A DNA stretch of 10,299 nt from Candidatus Auribacterota bacterium (GTDB lineage Bacteria; Auribacterota; UBA6266), in NCBI GenBank assembly GCA_023136205.1, contig JAGLRQ010000122.1:1-10299 (forward strand), read 5' to 3'. The notes beneath the pieces were generated by a model. It ran no database searches and had not been told where the DNA came from. It worked only from the letters and a program-made list of their open reading frames with translations. Every line of letters begins with the position of its first letter. Within the stretch, counting starts at the first letter, position 1. Positions 1 to 10,299 of the stretch are shown in pieces. Position numbers and translations under genes: made by a program.

Positions 1-2
1 GT

Positions 3-293
3 GATTCCAGGCGGCTGGTATCCCTGCTTCTGGGGAGCCGGCTTTATCTGTACCGGCCTACCGCATGCAGTATATACTCAAAGAAAATTGTAAAGGAATA
101 TTGTTCTAAGTATGGGTTTCAAATACTGGATCTTTTTAATGATATTCAGGTTGTTCCTTTGGCGCGTTTGATAGGTTTTTTGCGTATACCGGCGCTTGTC
201 CGGGGGCTTAAACTTTTTGGCTTGGAAAATAAAAGTCTTAAAATGATACTTTTGACAGGATATGCGGCGCGTGTTGTTCGTGAGGATGTATAA
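3..293 (+). CDS. 3' end of an upstream CDS (5'-truncated by the window edge), function unknown
   Basis: My own translation: frame 3 is open from the window edge to TAA at 291-293 (96 sense codons, ...KKIVKEYCSKYGFQILDLFNDIQVVPLARLIGFLRIPALVRGLKLFGLENKSLKMILLTGYAARVVREDV*). Third codon positions are T-rich like the downstream genes. The stop overlaps the next start codon (TAATG, 291-295). It is absent from the supplied track because no start codon lies in the window. No family recognised. Alternative not excluded: a frame-1 reading (VIPGGWYPCFWGAGFICTGLPHAVYTQRKL*) ending at TAA 88-90, followed by a ~200-nt leader. Confidence 0.4.
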   Translation, partial: DSRRLVSLLLGSRLYLYRPTACSIYSKKIVKEYCSKYGFQILDLFNDIQVVPLARLIGFLRIPALVRGLKLFGLENKSLKMILLTGYAARVVREDV

Positions 294-1336
294 TGGCATT
301 GAAAAAAAAATATTTTAGCTCGGGTTTAAAGACAATTAGTTCGATTGTCAGAAATAGAATTACTGGGTATAAAATTCCCCTATTGGCTTATATTCTGGTA
401 ACCAATCGTTGTAATCTCAATTGTGTTTATTGTTTTTCCAATGCCAATAAAACTAAAGACCTCGATATTCCTCTGGATAGGCTCTTTAGCATAATAGACC
501 AGCTGAAAGAGTGCGGCACGATATTGATTACGATAGGAGGCGGTGAACCGTGTTTACGCGGTGACATTGGTGAAATCTGTGATTATATTCTTAAAAAAGG
601 AATGATGGTTGAAGTAGTAACCAATGGCATCAACTTCGAAAAGAATTTAGATGCTATGAAGAAAATTGATTTTTTAGCAATAAGCATAGACGGTGATGAG
701 AATGCGCATGACAAAAACAGGGGCAAGGGTTCTTTCAAAGTTGCTGTAAAGGCTCTGGAACTGGCTAAAGAACATGGTATCCATACGCGGATCCATGCCT
801 GTTTTTCCAGAAATACTGCCAATTCACTACCGGGATTAATGAAGATCAGCAAAAAATACAACTTAAAGGTCAATATAGCTGTGCCATCTCTTCATACAGA
901 TGATCCTCTTCTGGCGTTTACCGATGATGAAATAAGAGAATACTACAGTCGGATGAAAGATTATAAAAAAAATGGCTATCCTGTTTCAAATTCTTATAGC
1001 ACATTGGATTTTATCAGTAAGTGGCCGGGAGATTTCGGTTATGTATCTGAAAAGCAAGATTCTTCTTTACCCTATTTGCCCTGTAAAAGAAAAGAATTTT
1101 GTATATATATTGATGCGGATGGCTATGCCTATCCCTGTGGAGCAGTTTGGAGCAAGTACAGGTTCAATGTTTTTGAAATAGGAGTTAAAAAAGCTTTTGA
1201 AGAATTTTGTAAGGTTACGTGTACAAATTGTATTGGAGAAGCAGAATTTAATCTTTTGTTTAACGGTAGCTTGAGCAGCCTGGCAAATGTCGCGGAATTT
1301 GGATTGTGGGACAGAATAAAGGATTTCATAAAATGA
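293..1336 (+). CDS. Radical SAM enzyme with SPASM/twitch-like C-terminal auxiliary Cys domain
   Basis: 347-aa ORF with GAGGA (282-286) 6 nt upstream of ATG 293. The radical SAM CX3CX2C motif is C40/C44/C47 (nt 410-433) in VTNRCNLNCVYCFSN. GGGEP motif at aa 82-86. SIDGDENAHDKNRGKGSF is typical of this enzyme class. The C-terminal Cys array is C264-x5-C270-x6-G-x4-C282, then C306-x3-C310-x2-C313 (nt 1082-1231). Confidence 0.9.
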   Translation: MALKKKYFSSGLKTISSIVRNRITGYKIPLLAYILVTNRCNLNCVYCFSNANKTKDLDIPLDRLFSIIDQLKECGTILITIGGGEPCLRGDIGEICDYILKKGMMVEVVTNGINFEKNLDAMKKIDFLAISIDGDENAHDKNRGKGSFKVAVKALELAKEHGIHTRIHACFSRNTANSLPGLMKISKKYNLKVNIAVPSLHTDDPLLAFTDDEIREYYSRMKDYKKNGYPVSNSYSTLDFISKWPGDFGYVSEKQDSSLPYLPCKRKEFCIYIDADGYAYPCGAVWSKYRFNVFEIGVKKAFEEFCKVTCTNCIGEAEFNLLFNGSLSSLANVAEFGLWDRIKDFIK

Positions 1337-1977
1337 ATCCCTGTAAATATATTTCTCCTTTGGAATTTTCGCGTGTTGTTTTTAAGTGCGTCAGAAAAGA
1401 TGGCCGTTGCGGATACCACAAAAAAGGCCAGGAATATAGATTTTCTAATCTGACGCCTGAGGGGTTGTGTCCTGAAGCTTATCATAATCTGTATTACGCG
1501 AGTCTTGGGATTCTGTTTAACGCGAAATTTGAAGAAAAACAGTTAACTGTAAAATGTCCAGCTGAAAATAACTGGGTAGTGTTTAGAGCAGGTTTTGAAA
1601 AATTAAATCTTCGCTTTCAAATTCTTAATGTGGTGAAGCGTGTATTGCGCTGGTTATTTCCCGGGCAGATTTATCAGGGCCGTTTGTTCTGGGAAGTTAT
1701 CAAAATTAACGGGGAATGCCCCAGGGGGCATTTGATGGGCTTGCGGTTTTATATAAATATGGGTAATTTCCAGATAACCAGAAATTTATTATTCCCATTA
1801 GGCCAGGCCCGTGGGCTTTGTCCCGCGATTTTTGATAATTTTTTTCCGTATCTCTATACGTGGCGAATGAGCAAAACTGTTCCCTGTTCAAAGGGTTCTC
1901 CTTCTGTCTTAATACAGTGCCCTGATCACAAAGCTAATATTACTTTCGAAATAAAAGAAGAGGAAAATGAAGCCTGA
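1333..1977 (+). CDS. Di-domain Cys-motif protein (two TIGR04076-like domains), paralog 1
   Basis: I prefer ATG 1333 (ATGA overlap with the upstream stop, AAGGA about 10 nt upstream) over the track's GTG at 1306. This gives 214 aa. There are two copies of a module: beta-strand-like start, then Cys-x(2-4)-h-x-x-G-x-x-[FWY], then GLCP-x-[AI][YF], then x-CP near the end. Domain 1 Cys are C26/C46/C75 and domain 2 Cys are C129/C163/C196. Domain 2 (ECPRGHLMGLRF...RGLCPAIFDNFFPYL...IQCPDHKANITFEI) best fits my recollection of the ~90-aa TIGR04076 family. Confidence 0.7.
   Translation: MNPCKYISPLEFSRVVFKCVRKDGRCGYHKKGQEYRFSNLTPEGLCPEAYHNLYYASLGILFNAKFEEKQLTVKCPAENNWVVFRAGFEKLNLRFQILNVVKRVLRWLFPGQIYQGRLFWEVIKINGECPRGHLMGLRFYINMGNFQITRNLLFPLGQARGLCPAIFDNFFPYLYTWRMSKTVPCSKGSPSVLIQCPDHKANITFEIKEEENEA
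1372..1602 (+). other. Cys-motif domain copy 1 (protein-level repeat)
   Basis: RVVFKCVRKDGRCGYHKKGQEYRF...PEGLCPEAYHNLYYASL...LTVKCPAENNWVVFRAGFEK. GLCP codons verified at nt 1462-1473. Confidence 0.55.
1681..1956 (+). other. Cys-motif domain copy 2 (protein-level repeat)
   Basis: RLFWEVIKINGECPRGHLMGLRFYI...ARGLCPAIFDNFFPYLY...VLIQCPDHKANITFEIKE. GLCP codons verified at nt 1813-1824. Confidence 0.6.
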
Positions 1978-2497
1978 TTGTTATATGTTTAAAAATATTC
2001 AAATAGAAGTAAAGTCCGTTGAAGGCAGTTGTAGCGCGGGATTTTGTCTGGGGAAGTGTTTTTCTCCTGAATCAATAATTCCGAAAGGGTTATGTCCTTT
2101 TTTGTATCACGCGGCACTTCCTTATCTGGAAGCTATAGAAAATGGAGCGTTTTTTAAGCCGTCCGGGAAAAATTTTATTAAGGTACAGTGTCCGAATACT
2201 TCGGTGGGCGTATTAGTTGAGATTTTTCAGGCTGAGAAAAAAGGAACTCAAATACGTGTTAGTGTGCCACATACCAAGGATTCAAAATGTCCATGTTATG
2301 ATTTCAAAGCCGGTGATAACTGGATAGTAACGGGAAATCAAAAAAGCTTTTGCCGCCGGGCTTATGATTCTCTTTTTCCATATTTAAACGCTTTATCATC
2401 TCAGACGAAAACTGCTGCCGAAAATGTTTTGACTGTAACATGCCCTTCATATCCTGATTTTGTGACTTTTAAGGTGATAAAATTATGGGAACCTTAA
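1967..2497 (+). CDS. Di-domain Cys-motif protein (two TIGR04076-like domains), paralog 2
   Basis: 176-aa ORF. ATG 1967 is preceded by AGAGGA (1959-1964) and overlaps the upstream gene by 11 nt. The N-terminus MKPDCY mirrors MNPCKY of the preceding gene, which supports this start. It carries two copies of the same module. Domain 3 Cys are C27/C31, C43 and C75. Domain 4 Cys are C108/C110, C129 and C159. Confidence 0.7.
   Translation: MKPDCYMFKNIQIEVKSVEGSCSAGFCLGKCFSPESIIPKGLCPFLYHAALPYLEAIENGAFFKPSGKNFIKVQCPNTSVGVLVEIFQAEKKGTQIRVSVPHTKDSKCPCYDFKAGDNWIVTGNQKSFCRRAYDSLFPYLNALSSQTKTAAENVLTVTCPSYPDFVTFKVIKLWEP
1994..2230 (+). other. Cys-motif domain copy 3 (protein-level repeat)
   Basis: NIQIEVKSVEGSCSAGFCLGKCF...PKGLCPFLYHAALPYLEAI...FIKVQCPNTSVGVLVEIFQ. 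GLCP codons verified at nt 2087-2098. Confidence 0.55.
2249..2482 (+). other. Cys-motif domain copy 4 (protein-level repeat)
   Basis: QIRVSVPHTKDSKCPCYDFKAGDNWIV...QKSFCRRAYDSLFPYLNAL...VLTVTCPSYPDFVTFKVIK. Central Cys codon at nt 2351-2353. GLCP is degenerated to SFCR. Confidence 0.55.
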
Positions 2498-3921
2498 GCT
2501 ATGGAAAAACGGTGAAAAGAATAACTTTGATCAGGCCGGGAGCATATCCCGAGGGTTTAATAGTTCCGTTGGGTTTGCTATATCTTGCGGGATATTTAAT
2601 TTCCAAAGTGCAGGACATTGATATTTCCATTCTTGATGCTGCTTTGGAAGATCTGGGGCCGGAAGAAATTGCTGAGAAAACAAAAATTCTTAAGCCGGAT
2701 TTAATTGGCCTGACTGGTTTAATAGCCCATACCGGTGATATAAAAAAAACTGCTAAGTGTATTCGCAAATTACTTCCGGAAACTGTTATTGTGGGCGGCG
2801 GCCCTGCCATGTCCTCTAACCATTTAGAACTATTAAAGGAACGGGCTATTGACTTTGGAGTAATAGGGGAAGGTGAAGAAACGTTTTTTTCTCTTCTCAA
2901 GGCACTTCGTGAGGATGGCAGCCTGTCCTTGATTGATGGCCTTGTTTATCGAGGGGAGGAGGACAGGATTATTCTCAATAATAAGCGCGGGATGATTGAA
3001 GACATAGACACGCTTCCGCGTCCTGCCTATCATTTAATTAAGGTTGAGGATTATTTTAACAGTTCTAAAAGAAATTCACAGTCACCTGTGTATATTTCCA
3101 AGCGCAATTTACCTATAATGACCTCCAGGGGGTGTCCGTTCAAATGTATTTACTGTCATAATCTTTTTGGGAAGAAGTTTCGTCCACGGAGTCCTGAGAA
3201 TGTGGTAGACGAAATCATTTGGCTCAAGCGTACATACAATATGGCCGAGCTTGAGATTATTGATGATATATTTAATTTTGATAAAGAACGTGCCAAGGAA
3301 ATTATGAGGAAAATTATCGATGAGGGGCTCAATTTAAAGATATCTTTTCCCAATGGGATTAAATATGAAACGATAGATGACGAATTACTGGAGTTGTTTA
3401 AAAAGGCCGGGGTTTATCGATTGGCATTTGGAATAGAAAGCGGCAATGAAAGAGTTCAAAAAGTGTTAAGAAAGGTTGTGGACCTTTACCGAATGCGTGA
3501 GATTATTGATCAGGTGGTTAAAATGGGTTTTTTTGTCAGCGGGTTTTTTCAGTTAGGGCTTCCCGGAGAAACTAAAGAGGAAATGTTGGATACAATTAAA
3601 TACGCGGCTTCTACAAAGCTTCATACAGCGACATTCCATTTGACCATTCCCTTTCCGGGAACACAGATGCATACTGAGTATGTTAAAGGGAAATTTGAAG
3701 CATCTCATTTCGAAAGCTGCAGAGATATTAGTGTTAATGTGAGCGCGGTAAGCGATCACGTTTTATTAAAACTTAAAAGATATGCCTTGTATAAATTTTA
3801 TTTTGACATCAAAAGGATGATCAGTATTTATAAGGTTTTTCCAGTTAAAAAAAGGATATTTTCAAACTTTATAAATGTGTTATCTGAAATATGTTTTCGA
3901 AAATGGTTAATTAATACATGA
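2485..3921 (+). CDS. B12-binding domain radical SAM enzyme (class B type)
   Basis: 478-aa ORF. ATG 2485 has AAGGTGA (2471-2477) upstream and overlaps the previous gene by 13 nt. The N-terminal ~130 aa look like the cobalamin-binding Rossmann domain of class B rSAMs (ITLIRPG...PLGLLYLAGYL...KPDLIGLTG...VIVGGGPAMS...DFGVIGEGEETF). The radical SAM motif is TSRGCPFKCIYCHN, with C217/C221/C224 at nt 3133-3156. RLAFGIESGNERV also fits the radical SAM core. Confidence 0.9.
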   Translation: MGTLSYGKTVKRITLIRPGAYPEGLIVPLGLLYLAGYLISKVQDIDISILDAALEDLGPEEIAEKTKILKPDLIGLTGLIAHTGDIKKTAKCIRKLLPETVIVGGGPAMSSNHLELLKERAIDFGVIGEGEETFFSLLKALREDGSLSLIDGLVYRGEEDRIILNNKRGMIEDIDTLPRPAYHLIKVEDYFNSSKRNSQSPVYISKRNLPIMTSRGCPFKCIYCHNLFGKKFRPRSPENVVDEIIWLKRTYNMAELEIIDDIFNFDKERAKEIMRKIIDEGLNLKISFPNGIKYETIDDELLELFKKAGVYRLAFGIESGNERVQKVLRKVVDLYRMREIIDQVVKMGFFVSGFFQLGLPGETKEEMLDTIKYAASTKLHTATFHLTIPFPGTQMHTEYVKGKFEASHFESCRDISVNVSAVSDHVLLKLKRYALYKFYFDIKRMISIYKVFPVKKRIFSNFINVLSEICFRKWLINT

Positions 3922-3928
3922 TAATTCT

Positions 3929-4732
3929 ATGAAGACAATTTTAAAAGGTAAAAATGTTTTGGTTACCGGAGCCGCGCACGGGATAGGGCGCGCGCTTACT
4001 AATTTTCTGGTAAAAGAAGGGTGCCGCCTTTGCCTGGTTGATATTGACAGGCCCGGGTTGATGAAAGTGTCGGATTTGGCGAAAGAAAAAGGGCTTGAAC
4101 CGATTTTGATGATTAAAGATCTGGCCCAGCCGAATGATAGGCAATCACTTATATCTTCATTGGATGAAAAGGGTTTTTATGTTGATATTCTTATTAATAA
4201 TGTTGGTGTAGGGTTCTGGCGCTATTTCCAGGATACGCCCTGGGAGAAACTTGACCAGATTATAGAGACAAACATTAAATGTATGACCCATCTAACGAAA
4301 CTGGTGTTACCCGGCATGCTGGTCAGGAATGAAGGGTATATTGTCAACCTGTCATCAACAGCGTCATTTATTGGGGCGCCTAACGCGGCTTGTTATTCGG
4401 CAACAAAAGCGTATATAAGTATTTTTAGTGAAACCCTTAATATGGAACTGAAAAAAACCAGGGTCAAAGTGATATGCGTATTTCCGGGAGCAACTGATAC
4501 CCCTTTCTGGAAATACGCTATGATGGATAACAGCAAATATAGCAGAGATATTCGCAGAATGACTGCCGAAGAAGTTGCTGAAGAAACTGTCGCGGCAATA
4601 AGAGCAGGCAAAGCTATTATAATTCCGGGGGCCAGAAACAGGTTGAATATGGTGATTGTGAAATTTTTGCCGCGTAAACTGTTAAAAAAAATTGCCTTGA
4701 ATCGTTTCAACGGCATAAACATAAAAAAATAA
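3929..4732 (+). CDS. Short-chain dehydrogenase/reductase (classical SDR) family oxidoreductase
   Basis: 267-aa ORF, 7 nt after the previous stop. TGxxxGIG cofactor motif (VLVTGAAHGIG, nt 3965-3988). NNVG (NNAG-type) motif. Catalytic Ser in NLSSTAS. YSATK with Y156/K160 (nt 4394-4408). PGATDTPF (PG motif). Confidence 0.9.
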   Translation: MKTILKGKNVLVTGAAHGIGRALTNFLVKEGCRLCLVDIDRPGLMKVSDLAKEKGLEPILMIKDLAQPNDRQSLISSLDEKGFYVDILINNVGVGFWRYFQDTPWEKLDQIIETNIKCMTHLTKLVLPGMLVRNEGYIVNLSSTASFIGAPNAACYSATKAYISIFSETLNMELKKTRVKVICVFPGATDTPFWKYAMMDNSKYSRDIRRMTAEEVAEETVAAIRAGKAIIIPGARNRLNMVIVKFLPRKLLKKIALNRFNGINIKK

Positions 4733-4747
4733 AGGCTTAAAATAAAG

Positions 4748-5188
4748 ATGAAGATTAGTCAACACATAATAAGTTCTTTACCTCTCGCGGGTGTATATTA
4801 TCTTATTACTAAAAATTTGCCGGCTGCTTTTTTGGTAGTTATTTCTACAATTGCTGTTGATATCGATCATGTCCTGGATTATGTTATTACACAGAAACGA
4901 ATAGATTCAATAAAAAATATGACAAAGGCTTTTGAAACATTTGACATTGTACACAAAAACTATCTTTTACTGCATTCCTGGGAGGCACTTGTTCTATTTG
5001 CTGTCTGTTTGTTCTTTTTCCCCAATCCGTATCTAATCGCGATTTTTACGGGGTATATGGTCCATCTTTTATGTGACCAGGTATTTAATTCCCATTTCTT
5101 AGGTAAATATAATACCAAATCGTTGTTCTACTTTTTTCTCTATCGGCTTCATATGAATTTTGATGTGTTGCCGATGAGAAAGGGGTAA
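4748..5188 (+). CDS. Small polytopic membrane protein, tentatively DUF457/YdjM-like membrane-bound metal-dependent hydrolase
   Basis: 146-aa ORF, 15 nt after the SDR stop. It has about four hydrophobic helices. His/Asp-containing motifs sit where the YdjM family has them: SQHIISS near the N-terminus, AVDIDHVLDY, LLLHSWEAL and GYMVHLLCDQ. The assignment is from memory of the family pattern only. Confidence 0.5.
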   Translation: MKISQHIISSLPLAGVYYLITKNLPAAFLVVISTIAVDIDHVLDYVITQKRIDSIKNMTKAFETFDIVHKNYLLLHSWEALVLFAVCLFFFPNPYLIAIFTGYMVHLLCDQVFNSHFLGKYNTKSLFYFFLYRLHMNFDVLPMRKG

Positions 5189-5194
5189 AAACAT

Positions 5195-8100
5195 ATGAAT
5201 AAAAACCTCAAGCAAAATGTAAAAAAATATTCCGGTGTTATAGAGATTGTTGCCGGGATAACCGCGGTGGTTGTCTTTATTCATGTTCTGAGAATTTTTC
5301 TTCTAAAAGGTGAAACGACTCTGATGCATGATAATTTCTACTGGGGATATCCTGTCTTCCAATTTTTTACGGAGAATATACTTAATGGCCATTTTCCCCT
5401 ATGGAATCCGTTTACACATGCTGGAGAACCGTTCTATCCGGTACTGTTTACGGCCCGATTACTGGATCCCAATATATTGCTGAGTATATTTTTAGGAAAA
5501 TTTTTTACTAACGATATTATCCTGTTATATAATTGGACATTTTTTTTGCAAAACTTGATAATGGTGTTTGGAATCTACCTTCTGTTTCGCCCGTTAGCTG
5601 GAAATCTATTTATACGTTTGTCTTTAATCCCTATTTTGCTTTATTCATCATTGATACTTGTTTCTTTTCGTCAAGGGCTGCCTTTGAGAACCTTTATATG
5701 GGTTCCTTTTATAACGTATTTTCTGCTTCGTATAATCTATTATAAAGATTACCGGTGGCATAACTGGCTTTTTCTGTCCGGTTTAATCGGCCTTAATTGG
5801 CAGTTCTATTATTTTTCTAACCTCTGGACATTCCTTTTATTGTTTTTCCTTGGCTTTGTGTTTTTTCGAAGGGATCTCTTAAAAGATTTGTTCAGAAGCA
5901 AAAATGTTGTTTTCAAATTCATAGCGGCAGGGGTGATTATATTCGCCATGATGATGCCAAACATTATTCTTATGCTGGAGAAAGACAATTATGTATATCC
6001 GGCAAGAATGATATATTCCGGCTATGAAGAAAAATTTCCTCAGGGAGGGCCGCAGCAATTTGAAGGCGATTCCCTGCCGGAAGTTTCTGGTATTGTAGTG
6101 CCTTATGGTTTGATGACTTATACAGGTTCTTTTTCGACCATCTGGAATTTCATTCAGATTATTTCCCCGGAAGCAAATAAAATGGTTACGGGGGACGAGA
6201 ACAGTTCTTGGGGGAAACCATCGGAAGCTTATATGTATTTAGGCCTTTTACCCTGGGCTATTGCTTTATTTGGTATGGCAGCCGGCAGGCACGGCCTTAA
6301 GAGATTATGGCTGTTTCTTCTTTTTGCGCTTGGATTGTTGATGTTGGGGCCGTCAGGAGGATTACATCGAATTCTCTATTACATTTTTCCTCCTCTCTGG
6401 TTTAACAGGCATACACAAAGTTTTACGCTATTCTTCTTGCTCCCTTTTTTATTTTTTTATGTTTTAGGATTTAACCGCATTTTTTCCACGTGGGATGGAG
6501 TTCTCTTTTCTTCTAATAATAAAACCGGCCCCATAAAACATCTGATACATAGGAAATCTGGCAATAGTACCGCATCCGGCCTCATAGCGTTGCTTCTGTT
6601 TTTTTGCAGCATAGTTGGTTTTGTATATTGGATGACGAATCTTGAATATCCGCAGACAAATTATTTATTCCTTTTAATTCTTTCTGTTTTTGCCATGGGC
6701 TGGTTACTGCGCAATGATTTGGGAGAAAAGGGAATATATACCGCTTTGATTGCAGGTTCTGTCGGCCTAGTTCTTATTCTGGGGCTTGAGCCGTTGGGAT
6801 TTATAACAAAAGTAATCCTATTTCTGTTGTTCCCTGTTATTTTGTTTTTACTTGTTAAAACAAATAAAAGATTATTTAAAAATTTTCCTATAGCGGCTGT
6901 TTTGCTTATTGCTTTTGCTCTTGTCCTGATTGAAGATTTAATCGCGCATCTTGATTTAACCGCTTATTTGTACCGGACACAAAGACACCCGAAGAAAGCC
7001 TTTAATTTTGAAACGTCTATTCGCGGCCCTGTGCTGCCTCGGAATAGAAAAATTGTTCCTGTTGCCGATTATGTTTTCGGCAATCAGTTTATGAGATATC
7101 TTTCTCTTATATATCATCAATCGTATGTCTTCTCGCCCGTTATGGAAGACCCGGAAATTTTATTTGAATCTCAGAAAAATATTACATTTGACGTGTTTAA
7201 GAATCATTCTTTCGAAGAATGGATTGAATTACCCGAAGGGCAGCTTTTGCCGGAGGGCTGCATATATTATCAGGAAGGAATAAGCGGTTTCGCGAAAAGA
7301 TATGATTTGGAAGGCGGTGTCGCAAAAGGCAAATATTCTGTTTTCCTGTCCCCATCGTCTAAAGGTAATTCCATGTTAAGATTTAGAACCGGAAACATTG
7401 AAGCTTTAAGGGGGCGGTTTATCAAGTTTTCGGTTTTAGTTAAAAGCCAGAATGAATCTTCTAATTGTATTCAGCTTGATATTCAGGATGGTGTAAGTCC
7501 TGTGACGGTTAGTTCTTATTCAAATAGCGGTGAATGGGAACGTATTTCAGTGACAAAGCGTATTGATGAGAACGCGAAGGAGATACTTCTTAATTTTAAT
7601 GTATTCCATAAATCTACTGCCGGAGCATTGTTTGATGAAGTAAAGATAGAAATTGGCAAAGGTATTGATTTTCCCGGAAAGTTTGAAAAGGCTTTATATA
7701 GCAAACGATGGAGTACTTTTTTACTGCTAAAAAGTTATTTTAATTTGATTAATTCGAGAATTCCTGCTCCTGTTTTAGAAAAAATGTTTGCGGTGGAGGA
7801 ACCTGTATTTCAGTTTAAACAGGGGGTTGTGGAAACGCGGAAAGGAGAGCTGATCCCTTTTTTAGAGAAACTGGATTCTGATGAAGCTGTTCAGTTGTTA
7901 GGAAAATATGTTTTAGCTGAGAAAAAATCTGATCTATCAATGGAACGTTTAAAAATATCTTTGGCAGATTACAAAAGATCAAAGGCGGGGAGTTATGAAT
8001 ACCGGAAGAGTAACAAGTTTTCATATTCCATTAAAAAATATGAGTACAGTTCTTTTGACATGGAGGTTTGTTCTGATAAAGCGGGGGTCCTTTACTGGTC

Positions 8101-8368
8101 TGACGGATATGACACAAGATGGAATGCCTATATTAATGGGAAGAAAGTTCCTGTTTATCGTGTTAACGTGAATTTTAAAGCTATTTACCTTCCGGCTGGT
8201 ACTAACCTGGTTAGTTTTGTTTATGAACATTCGCTGTTCACGTCAGCGCTGTTTGTGTTTTACAGTTTTTTTGCGGTATCTATTGCCGCGGGCCTGGCCG
8301 CGCTTGCGTACTGCTGTTTTGTGAAACGTGGGAAAAAATCGGGGCCGCTACTGACAATACAGTTGTAA
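5195..8368 (+). CDS. YfhO-like (GT-C-type) polytopic membrane glycosyltransferase-family protein with large extracytoplasmic C-terminal region
   Basis: 1057-aa ORF with GAAAGGGG upstream of ATG 5195. After TM1 comes HDNFYWGYPVFQFFTENILNGHFPLWNPFTHAGEPFY, which is the YfhO-type first-loop pattern (acidic residue, then L-x-G-x-x-P-L-W, then G-x-P). There are many TM helices up to about aa 585. The C-terminal signature YWSDGYDTRWNAYINGKKVPVYRVNVNFKAIYLPAGTNLVSFVYEHSLF is followed by a final TM helix (nt 8093-8239 onward), as in YfhO-family proteins. Confidence 0.75.
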   Translation: MNKNLKQNVKKYSGVIEIVAGITAVVVFIHVLRIFLLKGETTLMHDNFYWGYPVFQFFTENILNGHFPLWNPFTHAGEPFYPVLFTARLLDPNILLSIFLGKFFTNDIILLYNWTFFLQNLIMVFGIYLLFRPLAGNLFIRLSLIPILLYSSLILVSFRQGLPLRTFIWVPFITYFLLRIIYYKDYRWHNWLFLSGLIGLNWQFYYFSNLWTFLLLFFLGFVFFRRDLLKDLFRSKNVVFKFIAAGVIIFAMMMPNIILMLEKDNYVYPARMIYSGYEEKFPQGGPQQFEGDSLPEVSGIVVPYGLMTYTGSFSTIWNFIQIISPEANKMVTGDENSSWGKPSEAYMYLGLLPWAIALFGMAAGRHGLKRLWLFLLFALGLLMLGPSGGLHRILYYIFPPLWFNRHTQSFTLFFLLPFLFFYVLGFNRIFSTWDGVLFSSNNKTGPIKHLIHRKSGNSTASGLIALLLFFCSIVGFVYWMTNLEYPQTNYLFLLILSVFAMGWLLRNDLGEKGIYTALIAGSVGLVLILGLEPLGFITKVILFLLFPVILFLLVKTNKRLFKNFPIAAVLLIAFALVLIEDLIAHLDLTAYLYRTQRHPKKAFNFETSIRGPVLPRNRKIVPVADYVFGNQFMRYLSLIYHQSYVFSPVMEDPEILFESQKNITFDVFKNHSFEEWIELPEGQLLPEGCIYYQEGISGFAKRYDLEGGVAKGKYSVFLSPSSKGNSMLRFRTGNIEALRGRFIKFSVLVKSQNESSNCIQLDIQDGVSPVTVSSYSNSGEWERISVTKRIDENAKEILLNFNVFHKSTAGALFDEVKIEIGKGIDFPGKFEKALYSKRWSTFLLLKSYFNLINSRIPAPVLEKMFAVEEPVFQFKQGVVETRKGELIPFLEKLDSDEAVQLLGKYVLAEKKSDLSMERLKISLADYKRSKAGSYEYRKSNKFSYSIKKYEYSSFDMEVCSDKAGVLYWSDGYDTRWNAYINGKKVPVYRVNVNFKAIYLPAGTNLVSFVYEHSLFTSALFVFYSFFAVSIAAGLAALAYCCFVKRGKKSGPLLTIQL
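7178..7657 (+). other. CBM4/9-like (galactose-binding-like jelly-roll) segment inside the YfhO-like protein
   Basis: aa 662-821: NHSFEEW...KGKYSVFLSP...RGRFIKFSVLVKSQNESSNCIQLDIQDG...SNSGEWERISVTKRIDENAKEILLNFNVFHKSTAGALFDEVKIEIG. The order is: aromatic/acidic start, 'G-x-Y-x-hydrophobic' strand, 'hydrophobic-x-F-S-V-x-V-K' strand, then W-x-x-I-S-V. The terminal F-D-E-V-x-I matches the usual CBM_4_9 layout. Recognised by eye only. Confidence 0.4.
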
Positions 8369-8391
8369 CCTGTGATAGTTTTTTTTATAAT
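8363..8391 (+). promoter_or_regulatory. Candidate sigma70-type promoter in the only sizeable intergenic gap
   Basis: TTGTAA (8363-8368, 4/6 match to TTGACA, overlapping the TAA stop), an exact 17-nt spacer, then a perfect TATAAT (8386-8391). It lies about 70 nt upstream of ATG 8465, which has its own AAGGA (8451-8455). In AT-rich DNA such matches arise by chance fairly often. Confidence 0.3.
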
Positions 8392-8464
8392 GTGGTTTGA
8401 AATGGTTTTTGGTGAGGTTTTTTGTTGAAAAGGTTGTTTTATCGGAGAAAAAGGATTTGAGTAT

Positions 8465-9730
8465 ATGAATTTTAAAAAGGATGTTCTTTTCGCGAAGAAA
8501 AACAGAAAAACTGAAGCAATATTTATAAGCCTGATTTCTATGTTGTTTTTCTTATTCGTATATAAAATATTAACAGCCCAATCAATGCTTTCACATGATT
8601 CAATCCGCTGGTATGGCGTTTATCACCTCTTTGCGGATTCACTGTTAAACGGTATTTTTCCCTATTGGGATCCGTTTGATTCCTGCGGCCAGCCCTTTTA
8701 TTATAATTTGGGTATTTTGAGGTTGTATGAACCGATAACCGTTGGGTTTATTATGTTGCAAAAAGTGTTTAATTCTTCAATATTAAGTATTTATCATTGG
8801 GAATACATAATAAGAATTTGGTTGGTGGCCTTGGGTGTGTATCTGTGCTACAGGCAGACAAATAAATATCTTCTCAGCAGTTGTATGGTTTTTGCCGTGT
8901 TTTTATTTTCGTCTTTTGCCGTTACCTCTTTCAGACAGAATGGTGTTTTGTACGTATTTTTCTGGACGCCTCTGGCCATGTACTTTTTTTTGAAGCTCCT
9001 GAAGGATTTCAGTCTTTATAATGTAATAGGTTTTTCTTTTTTTATAGGCCTGTCATTGATTAATTATCAGGGGGTATATATACTAACCTACCTTTTTATT
9101 TTTATACTTACTTTATTGATTAATAAAAGAGGTTATTTAATCTCGGTATTTAAAAACGCTAAAAATTTGGTTCGTATCTTCGCCGGGATAATCGTGGTGG
9201 TTATTCTGGCCCTGCCATTACTGGGCATTTACATTGAAAAAGATAAGATAATTCCCAGTGTGAGATTGAGAGACAAAGCTGAGATCTCCGGGGGAATAAA
9301 CCTGGCCTATGATTCTATAGAAAAAGCGGGTACGCATTCCAATATAGCTGATTTTCTGGAACTTATATTTCCTCCGGTGGCACGCGGTTATTTCTGGCAT
9401 TGGTTTCCTGTATCCGGGGCTGCTTTGTCAGAGTGTTTTTTATATATCGGTATATTCCCGCTTGTATTAGGTATCCTGGGCGCTGTGAAATCCAGGCAGG
9501 AGTATCGCAAAAACTTTCTAATTACCCTTGTTCTTGTCGGGCTTTTGATGTTGGGCCCGAAATATGGTATTCACAGGCTGATATACTTTTTATTTTATCC
9601 TTTGCGGGTTACGCGGCACATGCATCTTTTCGCGGGGTTTTTTATATTTACACTGCTTTATTTTGTCGGGCAGGGTATAGATTTTGTTATAGATAACACT
9701 TTAGCGAAATTTACAAAGGATGGAAGATGA
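8465..9730 (+). CDS. YfhO-like membrane protein paralog, N-terminal (transmembrane) part
   Basis: 421-aa ORF, colinear with aa ~40-430 of the 5195-8368 product. SHDSIRWYGVYHLFADSLLNGIFPYWDPFDSCGQPFY matches MHDNFYWGYPVFQFFTENILNGHFPLWNPFTHAGEPFY. SSFAVTSFRQ matches SSLILVSFRQ. GLLMLGPKYGIHRLIYFLFYPLRVTRH matches GLLMLGPSGGLHRILYYIFPPLWFNRH. It ends at TGA 9728-9730, before any extracytoplasmic domain. Confidence 0.75.
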   Translation: MNFKKDVLFAKKNRKTEAIFISLISMLFFLFVYKILTAQSMLSHDSIRWYGVYHLFADSLLNGIFPYWDPFDSCGQPFYYNLGILRLYEPITVGFIMLQKVFNSSILSIYHWEYIIRIWLVALGVYLCYRQTNKYLLSSCMVFAVFLFSSFAVTSFRQNGVLYVFFWTPLAMYFFLKLLKDFSLYNVIGFSFFIGLSLINYQGVYILTYLFIFILTLLINKRGYLISVFKNAKNLVRIFAGIIVVVILALPLLGIYIEKDKIIPSVRLRDKAEISGGINLAYDSIEKAGTHSNIADFLELIFPPVARGYFWHWFPVSGAALSECFLYIGIFPLVLGILGAVKSRQEYRKNFLITLVLVGLLMLGPKYGIHRLIYFLFYPLRVTRHMHLFAGFFIFTLLYFVGQGIDFVIDNTLAKFTKDGR

Positions 9731-10299
9731 AAGAGGCCTTTTTAAGCCTTATTTATATTATAGTGCTCTATATGTATTTATTAGTAAGTCTGCTTGCCGC
9801 AATCTATTGGATAAAAAAGAAAAAAAAACTACTGGGGCCTTTTTTGTTAATTGTTGTTGCGATTGCGATAGACCTTTTTTTATTTAATAGGTTTATCTTA
9901 AATGAAGTAGTTTTACCACGTAAAGGTATTGGGTTTGAGAAATATCCAACCCCGTATAGTTTTTCGAAAAATAGAGTTCCAAATTTAATTTCGGACAATG
10001 GTTTCCATAATTTTCGTCCTGCCCTTTACAAAAAAGCTGTCGCTGTCGGCAGTTATACAATTGATGAAGCTGTAATAGATAACCACAGTGTGCCAAAAGC
10101 GTATGTGGTATTGCAGGACCATTTTTCTAAATATCCTTTATATGATGAATTAAATAAATTGAATATAAAACAGTTTATTAAATATGGCATGTCAAATATT
10201 GACAGTTGGGTGATAGAGGAAAGATTGTTTTTTTCAATAATATTAAATGCCGTATTAGATGGGTTTTTATCTCATCAGAGTTTTTATGAAAAATATATA
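9727..10299 (+). CDS. Continuation of the second YfhO-like paralog as a separate ORF (3'-truncated by the window edge)
   Basis: My own translation; not in the supplied track. ATG 9727 overlaps TGA 9728-9730 (ATGA). The frame stays open for 191 codons to the window end: MKEAFLSLIYIIVLYMYLLVSLLAAIYWIKKKKKLLGPFLLIVVAIAIDLFLFNRFILNEVVLPRKGIGFEKYPTPYSFSKNRVPNLISDNGFHNFRPALYKKA... It has two TM helices separated by KKKKK, then a soluble region. That region loosely aligns with KKAFNFETSIRGPVLPRNRKIVPVADYVFGNQF, which follows the last TM helix of the 1057-aa paralog. Confidence 0.6.
   Translation, partial: MKEAFLSLIYIIVLYMYLLVSLLAAIYWIKKKKKLLGPFLLIVVAIAIDLFLFNRFILNEVVLPRKGIGFEKYPTPYSFSKNRVPNLISDNGFHNFRPALYKKAVAVGSYTIDEAVIDNHSVPKAYVVLQDHFSKYPLYDELNKLNIKQFIKYGMSNIDSWVIEERLFFSIILNAVLDGFLSHQSFYEKYI

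What the first reader, a model, noticed from the sequence alone, without database searches (positions are those of the whole stretch)
293..4732. Translationally coupled cassette: SPASM-like rSAM, two di-domain Cys-motif proteins, B12-rSAM, SDR
Seen in sequence: two mechanistically different radical SAM enzymes flank two genes built only from a repeated three-Cys domain. One enzyme has CX3CX2C at nt 410-433 plus a C-terminal Cys array. The other has a B12-binding-type N-terminus plus CPFKCIYC at nt 3133-3156. The junctions are ATGA (1333-1336), an 11-nt overlap (1967-1977), a 13-nt overlap (2485-2497) and a 7-nt spacer to the SDR. That degree of coupling suggests co-translated partners, possibly in fixed stoichiometry. 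Established knowledge: SPASM/twitch rSAMs either crosslink Cys-containing peptides or oxidise small molecules. Class B rSAMs mostly methylate unactivated carbon or phosphorus centres. Inference, three competing readings: (a) the 214- and 176-aa proteins are large, leaderless protein substrates. (b) They are dedicated Fe-S/metal redox or scaffold partners that feed electrons or substrate to the two rSAMs. (c) They carry a small-molecule intermediate. I do not recognise a characterised pathway with this gene order.
Basis: partly seen in the sequence, partly recalled or inferred. Interest (0 to 1): 0.8.

Follow-up and report, generated by a model that had tools for sequence, protein, structure and literature searches.

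The report
Radical-SAM, cysteine-triad protein pair, reductase module
Two small proteins of unknown function, each built from two copies of a three-cysteine domain with no solved structure, always sit between a radical SAM enzyme and a reductase in a cell-surface sugar-modification gene cluster of uncultured anaerobes, and they look like a dedicated, probably iron-sulfur, partner of those enzymes, not their substrate.

Summary
All five ORFs, both CX3CX2C motifs and all four junctions are exactly where stated.

The two middle proteins (T1, 214 aa; T2, 176 aa) each hold two TIGR04076 domains. This family is catalogued but uncharacterised, has no Pfam model and has no detectable relative in the PDB.

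About a dozen metagenomic loci keep the order rSAM - T1 - T2 - (B12-rSAM) - SDR. The B12-rSAM sits between T2 and the SDR in only 8 of 12 loci, so the invariant core is rSAM + T1 + T2 + SDR.

Natural fusions exist as T1-T2, T2-T1, SDR-T4, T2-SDR and T3-DUF362-ferredoxin. These argue for a 1:1 four-domain partner subunit and against a leaderless substrate.

Each domain keeps a Cys triad (315 of 334 instances), with Pro following the second and third Cys. That suggests metal or Fe-S binding, but this is untested.

The "SPASM-like" enzyme conserves only four C-terminal Cys, so it is twitch-like with one auxiliary cluster.

The cassette lies inside a larger operon: amino-sugar genes, GT2, three B12-rSAMs, a methyltransferase and YfhO GT-C enzymes.

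Best reading, at moderate confidence: a three-component radical/ketoreductase tailoring module for a lipid-linked amino sugar. The chemistry is inferred, not shown.

The parts
1..293 (+). 3' end of an upstream SAM-dependent methyltransferase gene (309 aa in L001) that runs off the window. Its TAA stop (291-293) shares one base with the rSAM start codon.
   Evidence: L001 gene 7398-8327 carries Methyltransf_23/11/25 hits and NCBIfam methyltransferase hits. Sequence around 293.
293..1336 (+). Radical SAM enzyme, 347 aa. The CX3CX2C motif is C40/C44/C47 (nt 410-433). The C-terminal four-Cys auxiliary site (C264, C282, C310, C313; C-x17-C-x27-C-x2-C) is twitch-like.
   Evidence: PF04055 89 bits, no SPASM hit. 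Only generic SPASM/twitch-subgroup NCBIfam hits, all far below cutoffs. Cys conservation in 12 homologs. PDB sequence hits to SkfB, GDGT-MAS, BlsE, PqqE and viperin cover the core only.
1333..1977 (+). T1: 214-aa protein made of two TIGR04076 domains. Cys triads are C26/C46/C75 and C129/C163/C196.
   Evidence: TIGR04076 55.8 bits, 2 stretches. Domain alignment. Orthologs of 49-69% identity lie directly after the rSAM in about a dozen loci.
1967..2497 (+). T2: 176-aa protein made of two TIGR04076 domains. Cys triads are C22/C43/C75 and C108/C129/C159. His48 and Asp134 sit five residues after the central Cys.
   Evidence: TIGR04076 67.9 bits. Invariant columns in A1/A3. AF2 model pLDDT 86.7, pTM 0.83. 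No PDB neighbour.
2485..3921 (+). B12-binding (class B) radical SAM enzyme, 478 aa, CX3CX2C at nt 3133-3156. A frequent but not obligatory member of the cassette.
   Evidence: PF02310 59.6 bits and PF04055 79 bits. Best NCBIfam hits are Sden_1168 P-methyltransferase, BchE and HpnJ, all far below cutoffs. Present between T2 and SDR in 8 of 12 informative loci.
3929..4732 (+). Classical short-chain dehydrogenase/reductase, 267 aa, with TGAAHGIG, NNVG and Y156-x3-K160 motifs. An invariant partner of T1/T2, and fused to T domains in some genomes.
   Evidence: PF00106 144 bits. Motifs read directly from the translation. Fusions: P0032, P0069, P0015 and L023 2290-3651.
4748..5188 (+). Small membrane protein, 146 aa, weakly YdjM-like. 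Conserved directly after the SDR in related loci, so it may belong to the module.
   Evidence: PF04307 23 bits, below the cutoff. 51-54% identical orthologs in L014, L015, L019, L021 and L023.
5195..8368 (+). YfhO-family GT-C-type membrane glycosyltransferase-like protein, 1057 aa. The likely extracytoplasmic transfer step of the cluster.
   Evidence: PF09586 34.2 bits against a 28.5-bit cutoff. YfhO-like genes also end the cluster in L008, L023 and L024.
8465..9730 (+). 421-aa membrane protein, paralogous to the N-terminal 408 residues of the 1057-aa YfhO-like protein. Together with the next gene it forms a split YfhO paralog.
   Evidence: BLASTP 28% identity, E 7e-42. The next gene in L001 (17761-19242) carries the YfhO Pfam hit.
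9727..10299 (+). Start of the 493-aa YfhO-domain protein, which runs off the window's 3' end.
   Evidence: L001 gene 17761-19242, PF09586. Window-to-L001 offset is 8034.

Best explanation
T1 and T2 are the two non-identical halves of one four-domain partner protein. Each of the four TIGR04076 domains carries a Cys triad that most likely holds an iron-sulfur cluster or another metal site.

This T1-T2 unit works in a fixed complex with the twitch-type radical SAM enzyme (347 aa) and the classical SDR. Together they form a three-component tailoring module. The module sits inside a larger operon that builds a modified amino sugar on a lipid carrier and transfers it outside the cell:
- UDP-GlcNAc 3-dehydrogenase-like enzyme, DegT aminotransferase and an N-acetyltransferase;
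- a small GT2;
- three B12-rSAMs and a SAM methyltransferase;
- a flippase-like protein and YfhO GT-C enzymes.

Proposed mechanism (inferred):
1. The rSAM abstracts a hydrogen from a C-H next to a hydroxyl of the sugar or lipid-linked intermediate. This gives a ketone, either directly (BtrN-like two-electron oxidation) or after loss of a neighbouring OH (AprD4-like dehydration).
2. T1-T2 passes the odd electron to or from the rSAM auxiliary cluster, or holds the substrate at an open cluster iron.
3. The SDR reduces the ketone. The net result is epimerisation or deoxygenation.

Shown: gene content, conservation, fusions, the Cys triads and the absence of a known fold. Inferred: metal binding, complex formation, substrate and chemistry.
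For: Conserved order. rSAM-T1-T2-(B12-rSAM)-SDR recurs in about a dozen distinct loci at 40-76% identity.

Distant versions keep the partners.
- An SDR-T4 fusion is followed by a 35%-identical rSAM (L016).
- A 34%-identical rSAM is followed by a four-domain T protein and a GT2 (L018).

Fusions.
- Four-domain proteins occur in both orders: 34 as T1-T2 and 17 as T2-T1. Each contains one T1-like and one T2-like half.
- SDR-T and T2-SDR fusions exist.
- A T3-DUF362-2x[4Fe-4S] ferredoxin fusion lies next to a B12-rSAM, a GT2 and an rSAM fragment.

Cys triads.
- All three Cys are present in 315 of 334 domain instances.
- Pro follows the second Cys in 60% and the third Cys in 90% of instances. This is the CP signature common at Fe-S ligands (established knowledge).
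- In the AF2 model (pLDDT 86.7) the three Cys lie in a loop, at a helix N-terminus and at a strand end, at equivalent places in both domains.

rSAM type. The rSAM has one four-Cys auxiliary site. Twitch enzymes such as BtrN carry out two-electron oxidations in which the auxiliary cluster is the proposed electron acceptor (PMC9012708).

Precedent for the enzyme pair. An rSAM dehydratase with an NADPH reductase partner is known: AprD4/AprD3 (PMC5461906).

Cluster context. GT2 plus YfhO matches the lipid-carrier glycosylation logic of CsbB/YfhO (PMC5836110, PMC7389260).
Against: - No metal binding was tested, and I could not read model coordinates to check that each Cys triad converges in space.
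- There is no universally conserved fourth ligand. The residue five positions after the central Cys is His 36%, Tyr 16%, Asp 16% and Asn 9%.
- An SDR transfers hydride and cannot feed single electrons to Fe-S clusters without a flavin, so the T-SDR fusion does not by itself explain a redox role.
- The rSAM matches no characterised equivalog; all NCBIfam scores are far below cutoffs. The BtrN/AprD4 analogy is therefore functional, not phylogenetic.
- The substrate is unknown.
- The reverse survey, asking whether homologs of this rSAM always sit next to T proteins, was not done.
Confidence: 0.45

Rival explanations
1. T1 and T2 are protein substrates. The radical SAM enzyme cross-links or otherwise modifies their conserved cysteines, as QhpD does to the small QhpC subunit, or as in sactipeptides and ranthipeptides. 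The modified protein is the product, or a cofactor-bearing subunit that then works with the SDR.
For: The best NCBIfam hits of the 347-aa rSAM include peptide maturases (MftC, StsB, WgkB, AlbA, PapB), although only over the rSAM core. The T proteins are Cys-rich, with nearly invariant triads. The rSAM-T1-T2 genes overlap in every locus. Protein-subunit substrates of SPASM enzymes are known (QhpC; my own knowledge, not tested here).
Against: - T domains are fused to an SDR and to a DUF362-ferredoxin. That is expected for enzyme subunits and odd for a matured product.
- There is no leader/core organisation, no RRE/PqqD domain, and no dedicated protease in the window.
- The rSAM has only one conserved auxiliary site and no SPASM hit.
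- T proteins also occur with other enzyme sets: L026 and L029, and next to a glycyl-radical cluster in Bilophila (PMC8667426).
- T1/T2 diverge at about the same rate as the enzymes: 40-69% identity against 53-76%.
Confidence: 0.15
2. T1-T2 is a non-redox adaptor or carrier. The Cys triads either bind structural zinc or hold a small-molecule or lipid-linked intermediate. The protein presents this intermediate in turn to the rSAM, the B12-rSAM and the SDR.
For: Three Cys plus His or Asp (H48 and D134 in T2, and the same pattern in T1) is also a good zinc site. Fusion to the SDR fits substrate hand-over. No ferredoxin-type CxxCxxC motif is present.
Against: - The His/Asp position is not conserved family-wide.
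- The family appears to be found in anaerobes and is fused to a 2x[4Fe-4S] ferredoxin. That fits an oxygen-sensitive redox role better.
- There is no known precedent for a Cys-triad carrier of sugar or lipid intermediates.
- There is no phosphopantetheine-type or lipoyl-type motif, and no Pfam hit even at E up to 10.
Confidence: 0.2
3. T1-T2 is itself a catalyst. Each triad holds a [4Fe-4S] cluster with one open iron that binds a substrate hydroxyl, as in aconitase-type dehydratases or IspG/IspH. T1-T2 would then be a dehydratase or reductive dehydroxylase acting between the rSAM step and the SDR step.
For: There are exactly three conserved Cys per domain and no universal fourth ligand. T domains are fused to two unrelated enzymes of alcohol/ketone chemistry: an SDR, and DUF362, which shares a Pfam clan with the LarA racemases (PMC11770544).
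Against: Four catalytic sites per unit would be unusual. No conserved acid/base residues besides the Cys and a few Pro, Tyr and Phe were seen. Nothing was tested.
Confidence: 0.15

Closest known systems
TIGR04076 family (NCBIfam/TIGRFAMs 'TIGR04076 family protein', also called 'uncharacterized repeat protein')
   Same: Both middle proteins score above the curated cutoff, with two domains each. They have the same roughly 85-aa unit with three conserved Cys.
   Different: The family has no assigned function, no Pfam model and no solved structure. The only literature mentions are annotation lines. New here: the T1/T2 split into two paralogous halves, the four-domain unit, and the fixed link to an rSAM and an SDR.
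BtrN and other twitch-domain radical SAM enzymes
   Same: An rSAM core followed by a single auxiliary cluster site of four Cys, arranged as a C-x17-C pair and a C-x2-C pair. Twitch enzymes bind one auxiliary cluster, and BtrN oxidises a secondary alcohol of an amino-cyclitol (PMC9012708).
   Different: There is no specific sequence relationship: BtrN was not among the PDB sequence hits and no equivalog cutoff was met. BtrN needs no T-type partner.
AprD4/AprD3 (radical SAM diol dehydratase plus NADPH-dependent reductase; C3' deoxygenation of aminoglycosides)
   Same: An rSAM enzyme is paired with a short-chain reductase, acting on an amino sugar (PMC5461906). The cluster here also makes an amino sugar.
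   Different: AprD4 resembles the B12-rSAM-type proteins here only weakly (57 bits against a 500-bit cutoff; PDB 6fd2 at E 2e-11) and does not resemble the 347-aa rSAM. The AprD system has no Cys-triad protein.
Three-component glycosylation systems (CsbB/GtrB-type GT2, small flippase, YfhO-type GT-C)
   Same: A small GT2 lies upstream and YfhO-family proteins lie downstream in the same operon. A flippase-like membrane protein is present in related loci. The logic is as described for lipoteichoic acid glycosylation (PMC5836110, PMC7389260).
   Different: The known systems have no radical SAM enzymes, no B12-rSAMs and no T proteins. The flippase-like gene here is of the LPG_synthase_TM type, not GtrA/GtcA. 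The acceptor polymer is unknown.
QhpD/QhpC and SPASM peptide maturases
   Same: An rSAM of the SPASM/twitch subgroup sits next to small Cys-rich proteins.
   Different: There is no SPASM hit and only four conserved auxiliary Cys. There is no leader, RRE or protease. The T domains are fused to enzymes.

Membership tests
TIGR04076 family | HMM score at or above the curated cutoff (33 bits) | tested here: met
   T1 scores 55.8 bits and T2 scores 67.9 bits, with two matched stretches each.
TIGR04076 family | A domain of roughly 85-90 aa with three conserved cysteines | tested here: met
   315 of 334 domain instances have all three Cys. All four window domains keep them.
SPASM-domain radical SAM | Pfam SPASM (PF13186) match | tested here: not met
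   No PF13186 hit at E <= 0.01 for the 347-aa protein. Neighbouring rSAMs in L013 and L026 do have such a hit.
SPASM-domain radical SAM | Seven conserved C-terminal Cys for two auxiliary clusters | tested here: not met
   Only C264, C282, C310 and C313 are invariant in 12 homologs. C270 and C306 are not conserved.
Twitch-domain radical SAM | A truncated SPASM-like C-terminal extension that binds one auxiliary cluster | tested here: inconclusive
   Four invariant Cys in a C-x17-C...C-x2-C arrangement fit this (definition from PMC9012708). The fold and cluster binding were not tested.
Radical SAM superfamily | PF04055 match and a CX3CX2C motif | tested here: met
   89 bits with C40/C44/C47 for the 347-aa protein; 79 bits with C217/C221/C224 for the 478-aa protein.
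Class B (cobalamin-binding) radical SAM | An N-terminal B12-binding domain (PF02310) followed by an rSAM domain | tested here: met
   PF02310 59.6 bits at residues 23-134; PF04055 at residues 213-373.
Class B (cobalamin-binding) radical SAM | Methyltransferase (or other defined) activity; membership of a characterised equivalog | tested here: not met
   The best equivalog scores are 184 bits (cutoff 575), 174 bits (cutoff 481) and 160 bits (cutoff 578). Activity is not testable here.
Classical SDR | adh_short match plus the TGxxxGxG, NNAG-like and YxxxK motifs | tested here: met
   PF00106 144 bits. TGAAHGIG, NNVG and Y156-SAT-K160 were read from the translation.
AprD4/AprD3-type deoxygenation pair | The rSAM partner belongs to the AprD4 family (NF033070) | tested here: not met
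   NF033070 is not among the best 25 of the 75 NCBIfam families listed for the 347-aa rSAM. The 478-aa B12-rSAM scores 57 bits against a cutoff of 500.
Three-component lipid-carrier glycosylation (GT2 + flippase + YfhO) | A YfhO-family GT-C and a small GT2 in one operon | tested here: met
   PF09586 34.2 bits against a 28.5-bit cutoff. A 241-aa GT2 lies upstream in L001, with hits to ArnC, PpgS and AglJ-type polyprenyl-phosphate glycosyltransferases below their cutoffs.
Three-component lipid-carrier glycosylation (GT2 + flippase + YfhO) | A GtrA/GtcA-type flippase | tested here: not met
   None was found in the 20-kb L001 locus. Related loci carry an LPG_synthase_TM flippase-like protein in its place.
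RiPP / protein-substrate maturation system | A precursor with leader/core organisation, an RRE domain and a dedicated protease or exporter | tested here: not met
   No such domains occur in the window proteins. The T proteins are fused to enzymes elsewhere. Modification itself is not testable here.

The most novel reading that the evidence does not exclude
The TIGR04076 domain is a new fold of three-Cys iron-sulfur module. As a T1-T2 hetero-unit with four clusters, it is the obligatory third component of a previously unrecognised class of radical enzyme system: a twitch rSAM, the T1-T2 unit and an SDR. This system would deoxygenate or epimerise lipid-linked amino sugars in the envelopes of uncultured anaerobes. 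It would be a radical, oxygen-independent counterpart of DprE1/DprE2-type or AprD4/AprD3-type chemistry.
Probability: 0.3. Interest if true: 0.8.

Novelty: new variant of a known kind. Interest (0 to 1): 0.62.

Why it matters
TIGR04076 has sat in databases for over a decade with no function, no Pfam model and no structure. This work gives it a concrete, testable context:
- a four-domain hetero-unit;
- two fixed enzyme partners (a twitch-type radical SAM enzyme and an SDR);
- a pathway setting (lipid-carrier amino-sugar tailoring ending in YfhO transfer).

If the Cys triads hold Fe-S clusters, this would be a new type of dedicated partner for radical SAM enzymes. It would bear on an open question in the field: how auxiliary clusters exchange electrons with the outside. 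It would also point to unusual, heavily C-modified surface sugars in candidate phyla such as Auribacterota and in Thermodesulfobacteriota.

Tried and rejected
Searches that found nothing for the T proteins:
- Sequence search against the PDB, with a single sequence and with a profile.
- Foldseek against the PDB with two AF2 models. Best E values were 0.36 and 0.08, with TM-scores of at most 0.31.
- Pfam at E <= 10.

- The genome-contig scan gave only 2 loci because its patterns were ortholog-specific.
- A homolog search with a single-domain member returned only the query itself.

Ideas considered and set aside:
- A hopanoid-like side-chain pathway (HpnG/H/I/J/L parallels: nucleoside phosphorylase, rSAM, GT2, B12-rSAM, flippase-like). 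All Hpn scores are far below cutoffs. The phosphorylase is an ordinary purine nucleoside phosphorylase (above its own cutoff) paired with an APRT-like gene, which fits salvage of the 5'-deoxyadenosine/adenine by-products of four rSAMs better. These genes are also absent from the window's own locus.
- A mycofactocin-like system. There is no MftA or MftB, and the scores are far below cutoffs.

Other checks:
- The apparent loss of the rSAM and T1 genes in L002 is a 100-N scaffold gap.
- Rfam found no RNA family in the window.
- Promoter-like and terminator-like sites are at chance level.
- Literature searches for YfhO plus radical SAM and for Aureabacteria gave nothing on this cluster.

Full report
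**1. The observation**

- nt 410-433 encode CNLNCVYC and nt 3133-3156 encode CPFKCIYC.
- The junctions are ATGA (1333-1336), an 11-nt overlap (1967-1977), a 13-nt overlap (2485-2497) and a 7-nt spacer.

The gene identities are well supported.
- The 347-aa protein is a radical SAM enzyme (PF04055, 89 bits).
- The 478-aa protein has a B12-binding domain plus a radical SAM domain.
- The 267-aa protein is a classical SDR (PF00106, 144 bits; TGAAHGIG, NNVG and YSATK motifs).
- The two middle proteins have no Pfam match. Each matches NCBIfam TIGR04076 twice, above the curated cutoff (55.8 and 67.9 bits against 33).

I call the middle proteins T1 (214 aa) and T2 (176 aa). They are only 20-27% identical to each other.

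**2. Source and wider context**

T2 is identical to a protein of a 'Candidatus Aureabacteria' MAG. The window maps onto a 291-kb scaffold, L001, with a window-to-locus offset of 8034.

The cassette is the middle of a long same-strand operon.
- Upstream: a B12-rSAM (508 aa), a UDP-GlcNAc 3-dehydrogenase-like GFO/IDH/MocA enzyme, a DegT aminotransferase, a small GT2 (241 aa) that resembles polyprenyl-phosphate glycosyltransferases, a second B12-rSAM (567 aa), and a SAM methyltransferase. The methyltransferase stop codon shares one base with the rSAM start.
- Downstream of the SDR: a small YdjM-like membrane protein, a 1057-aa YfhO-family protein, and a split YfhO paralog.

The finding's coordinates therefore cut a module out of a larger cluster.

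**3. Recurrence**

I looked up contigs encoding T2 homologs, ran one genome scan and ran one metagenome scan. Together these gave about a dozen distinct loci: L001, L007, L008, L011, L013, L014, L015, L019, L020, L021, L023, L024 and L025.

Local BLASTP against the window proteins showed the following.
- The 347-aa rSAM (61-76% identity; 97% in the near-identical L011) directly precedes T1 (49-69%) and T2 (40-63%) in every locus.
- The SDR (53-62%) follows in every locus whose contig reaches that far.
- The B12-rSAM (65-71%) lies between T2 and the SDR in 8 of 12 informative loci. It is missing there in L013, L014, L023 and L025.
- rSAM-T1 and T1-T2 overlap by 4-14 nt in all six loci with called genes.

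The larger cluster is also conserved. It contains:
- GFO-type dehydrogenase, NeuD/PglB/VioB-type N-acetyltransferase, DegT, GT2, B12-rSAM and methyltransferase;
- the module itself, then the YdjM-like protein;
- a purine nucleoside phosphorylase, an APRT-like protein and an M29-like protein;
- a flippase-like LPG_synthase_TM protein, another B12-rSAM and YfhO;
- an MsbA/HepA-like or Wzt-type ABC transporter at the edge.

**4. What the T proteins are**

*Family size and architecture.* A full HMMER scan of 1.84 billion representative proteins found only 303 clusters at E <= 0.001. Among the best 150 plus the window proteins, a domain HMM counts 81 two-domain proteins, 53 four-domain proteins, 21 with three detected domains and 4 single-domain proteins.

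*Two halves of one unit.* Splitting the four-domain proteins shows that each contains one T1-like half and one T2-like half. Both orders occur: 34 as T1-T2 and 17 as T2-T1. Independent fusions in both orders are the classic signature of two polypeptides that form one 1:1 unit.

*Other fusions.* Apart from one apparently truncated T-SDR protein (P0015), the only other fusion partners are:
- an N-terminal SDR (P0032, P0069);
- a C-terminal SDR (the T2-SDR fusion in L023);
- a DUF362 domain plus a 2x[4Fe-4S] ferredoxin (P0048).

*Distant contexts keep the same company.*
- The SDR-T4 fusion is followed by a 35%-identical homolog of the 347-aa rSAM (L016).
- A four-domain T protein is preceded by a 34%-identical rSAM and followed by a GT2 (L018).
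- The DUF362 fusion is followed by a B12-rSAM, a GT2 and an rSAM fragment (L029).
- A single-domain T gene lies among two rSAM/SPASM genes, two B12-rSAMs, a GT2 and a methyltransferase (L026).

**5. The domain**

- The consensus is V..G.C......G..F......P..LCP.AF...YPY...L...(about 20)...CP.....V.
- All three Cys are present in 315 of 334 fully covered domain instances.
- Pro follows the second Cys in 60% and the third Cys in 90% of instances.
- The residue five positions after the central Cys is His in the first domain and Asp in the second domain of both window proteins. Family-wide it is only a preference.
- AlphaFold2 with a 49-sequence alignment gives a confident model of T2 (pLDDT 86.7, pTM 0.83). 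Each domain runs strand - loop (Cys1) - strand - helix (Cys2 at its N-terminus) - strand (Cys3 at its end) - strand.
- Foldseek against the PDB finds nothing (best E 0.08, TM 0.31). Sequence and profile searches of the PDB, and Pfam at E <= 10, also find nothing.
- The literature holds only annotation-level mentions of TIGR04076. One of them places it next to a glycyl-radical-enzyme cluster with its rSAM activase in Bilophila.

**6. The enzymes**

*The 347-aa rSAM.* In 12 homologs, the invariant Cys are the CX3CX2C triad plus C264, C282, C310 and C313 only. There is no Pfam SPASM hit. This fits a twitch-type extension with one auxiliary cluster, not a two-cluster SPASM domain (definitions from PMC9012708). 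Its database hits are generic to the SPASM/twitch subgroup and cover only the core.

*The 478-aa enzyme.* It is a bona fide class B architecture but reaches no equivalog cutoff. Its best hits are a P-methyltransferase family, BchE and HpnJ. Its PDB sequence hits are 9ccb, AprD4, TokK, TsrM and CysS.

**7. Interpretation**

Shown:
- A conserved rSAM + T1 + T2 + SDR core.
- T1 and T2 as two halves of a four-domain unit.
- Nearly invariant Cys triads.
- Fusion of T domains to redox enzymes.
- Placement in a lipid-carrier amino-sugar / YfhO cluster rich in radical SAM enzymes.

Inferred:
- The triads bind Fe-S clusters. The supporting points are the CP signature, the fusion to a ferredoxin, the constant company of Fe-S enzymes, and the anaerobic hosts.
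- T1-T2 is a dedicated partner that either relays the odd electron of the radical reaction to or from the rSAM auxiliary cluster, or holds the substrate.
- The rSAM makes a ketone at a sugar carbinol centre. This could be BtrN-like oxidation (PMC9012708) or AprD4-like dehydration (PMC5461906).
- The SDR then reduces the ketone, giving net epimerisation or deoxygenation.
- The GT2 and YfhO genes suggest that the sugar travels on a polyprenyl phosphate, as in CsbB/YfhO systems (PMC5836110, PMC7389260).
- The purine nucleoside phosphorylase and APRT-like genes in related loci fit salvage of rSAM by-products.

I give this overall reading 0.45. The 'obligate partner module' part is much firmer than the chemistry.

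**8. Rivals**

- A QhpC-like protein substrate is disfavoured by the enzyme fusions, the absence of leader, RRE or protease, and the single auxiliary site. It is not excluded (0.15).
- A zinc adaptor or carrier (0.2) and a catalytic open-iron cluster enzyme (0.15) remain open.
- On the catalytic rival: DUF362 belongs to the same Pfam clan as the LarA racemases (PMC11770544). Both kinds of enzyme fused to T domains therefore handle alcohol/ketone centres. This is a lead, not a test.

**9. Novelty**

The parts are catalogued families. However, the architecture of the T unit, its fixed partners and its pathway context are not described in the literature I could search. I file it as a new variant of a known kind: a radical SAM sugar-tailoring operon with an uncharacterised, probably Fe-S, partner of unknown fold. 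There is a fair chance that the T domain is a new cofactor-binding fold.

Noticed in passing
window 1-295: The 3' end of a SAM-dependent methyltransferase gene enters from the left edge. Its TAA stop (291-293) shares one base with the rSAM ATG (TAATG). The operon therefore starts well upstream of the finding. In L001 it goes back through a B12-rSAM, a GT2, DegT, a GFO-type dehydrogenase and another B12-rSAM.
   Followed up: yes
window 8465-9730 and 9727-10299: The 421-aa membrane protein is 28% identical to the N-terminal 408 residues of the 1057-aa YfhO-like protein. The overlapping next gene carries the YfhO Pfam domain. Together they look like a YfhO paralog split into two genes.
   Followed up: partly
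window 8369-8464: This is the only sizeable non-coding gap in the window (96 nt, T-rich). A promoter-like hexamer pair lies at 8363-8391. It could be an internal promoter or terminator between the two YfhO-type units. Overall, promoter-like and terminator-like counts in the window are at chance level.
   Followed up: no
window 4748-5188; L014 4682-5143; L015 5705-6163; L019 11249-11707; L021 12821-13279; L023 5370-5843: A small membrane protein (146-157 aa, weakly YdjM-like and below the Pfam cutoff) is conserved at 51-54% identity after the SDR: directly after it in five related loci, and after an intervening B12-rSAM in L023. It may be a fifth member of the module.
   Followed up: partly
L014 5133-7568; L015 6160-8250; L019 11704-14106; L021 13276-16710; L023 5821-9258; L024 12886-16335: A conserved block lies downstream in related loci but is absent from the window's own 20-kb locus. 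It contains a purine nucleoside phosphorylase (above its NCBIfam cutoff), an APRT-like phosphoribosyltransferase, an M29/NicX-like protein and a flippase-like LPG_synthase_TM protein. It plausibly salvages 5'-deoxyadenosine/adenine from the four rSAM enzymes and flips the lipid-linked product.
   Followed up: partly
L023 2290-3651: T2 and the SDR are fused into one 453-aa ORF in this metagenomic contig. The same locus carries two paralogs of the 508-aa B12-rSAM (3755-5347 and 9262-10806).
   Followed up: partly
L029 18-4538 and L026 832-12432: Other TIGR04076 contexts repeat the same theme. One is a T3-DUF362-ferredoxin fusion followed by a B12-rSAM, a GT2 and an rSAM. The other is a single-domain T gene among two rSAM/SPASM genes, two B12-rSAMs, a GT2, a methyltransferase and a carbamoyltransferase. 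The T domain may be a general companion of radical SAM sugar-tailoring clusters.
   Followed up: partly
L002 5373-5472: One assembly of the same organism seems to lack the rSAM and T1 genes. This is a 100-N scaffold gap, not a biological deletion.
   Followed up: yes
L017 3-1355: The SDR-T4 fusion protein P0032 is preceded by an AICARFT/IMPCHase (PurH-like) gene, not an rSAM. The contig ends right after the fusion gene, so the rSAM partner could lie downstream.
   Followed up: no
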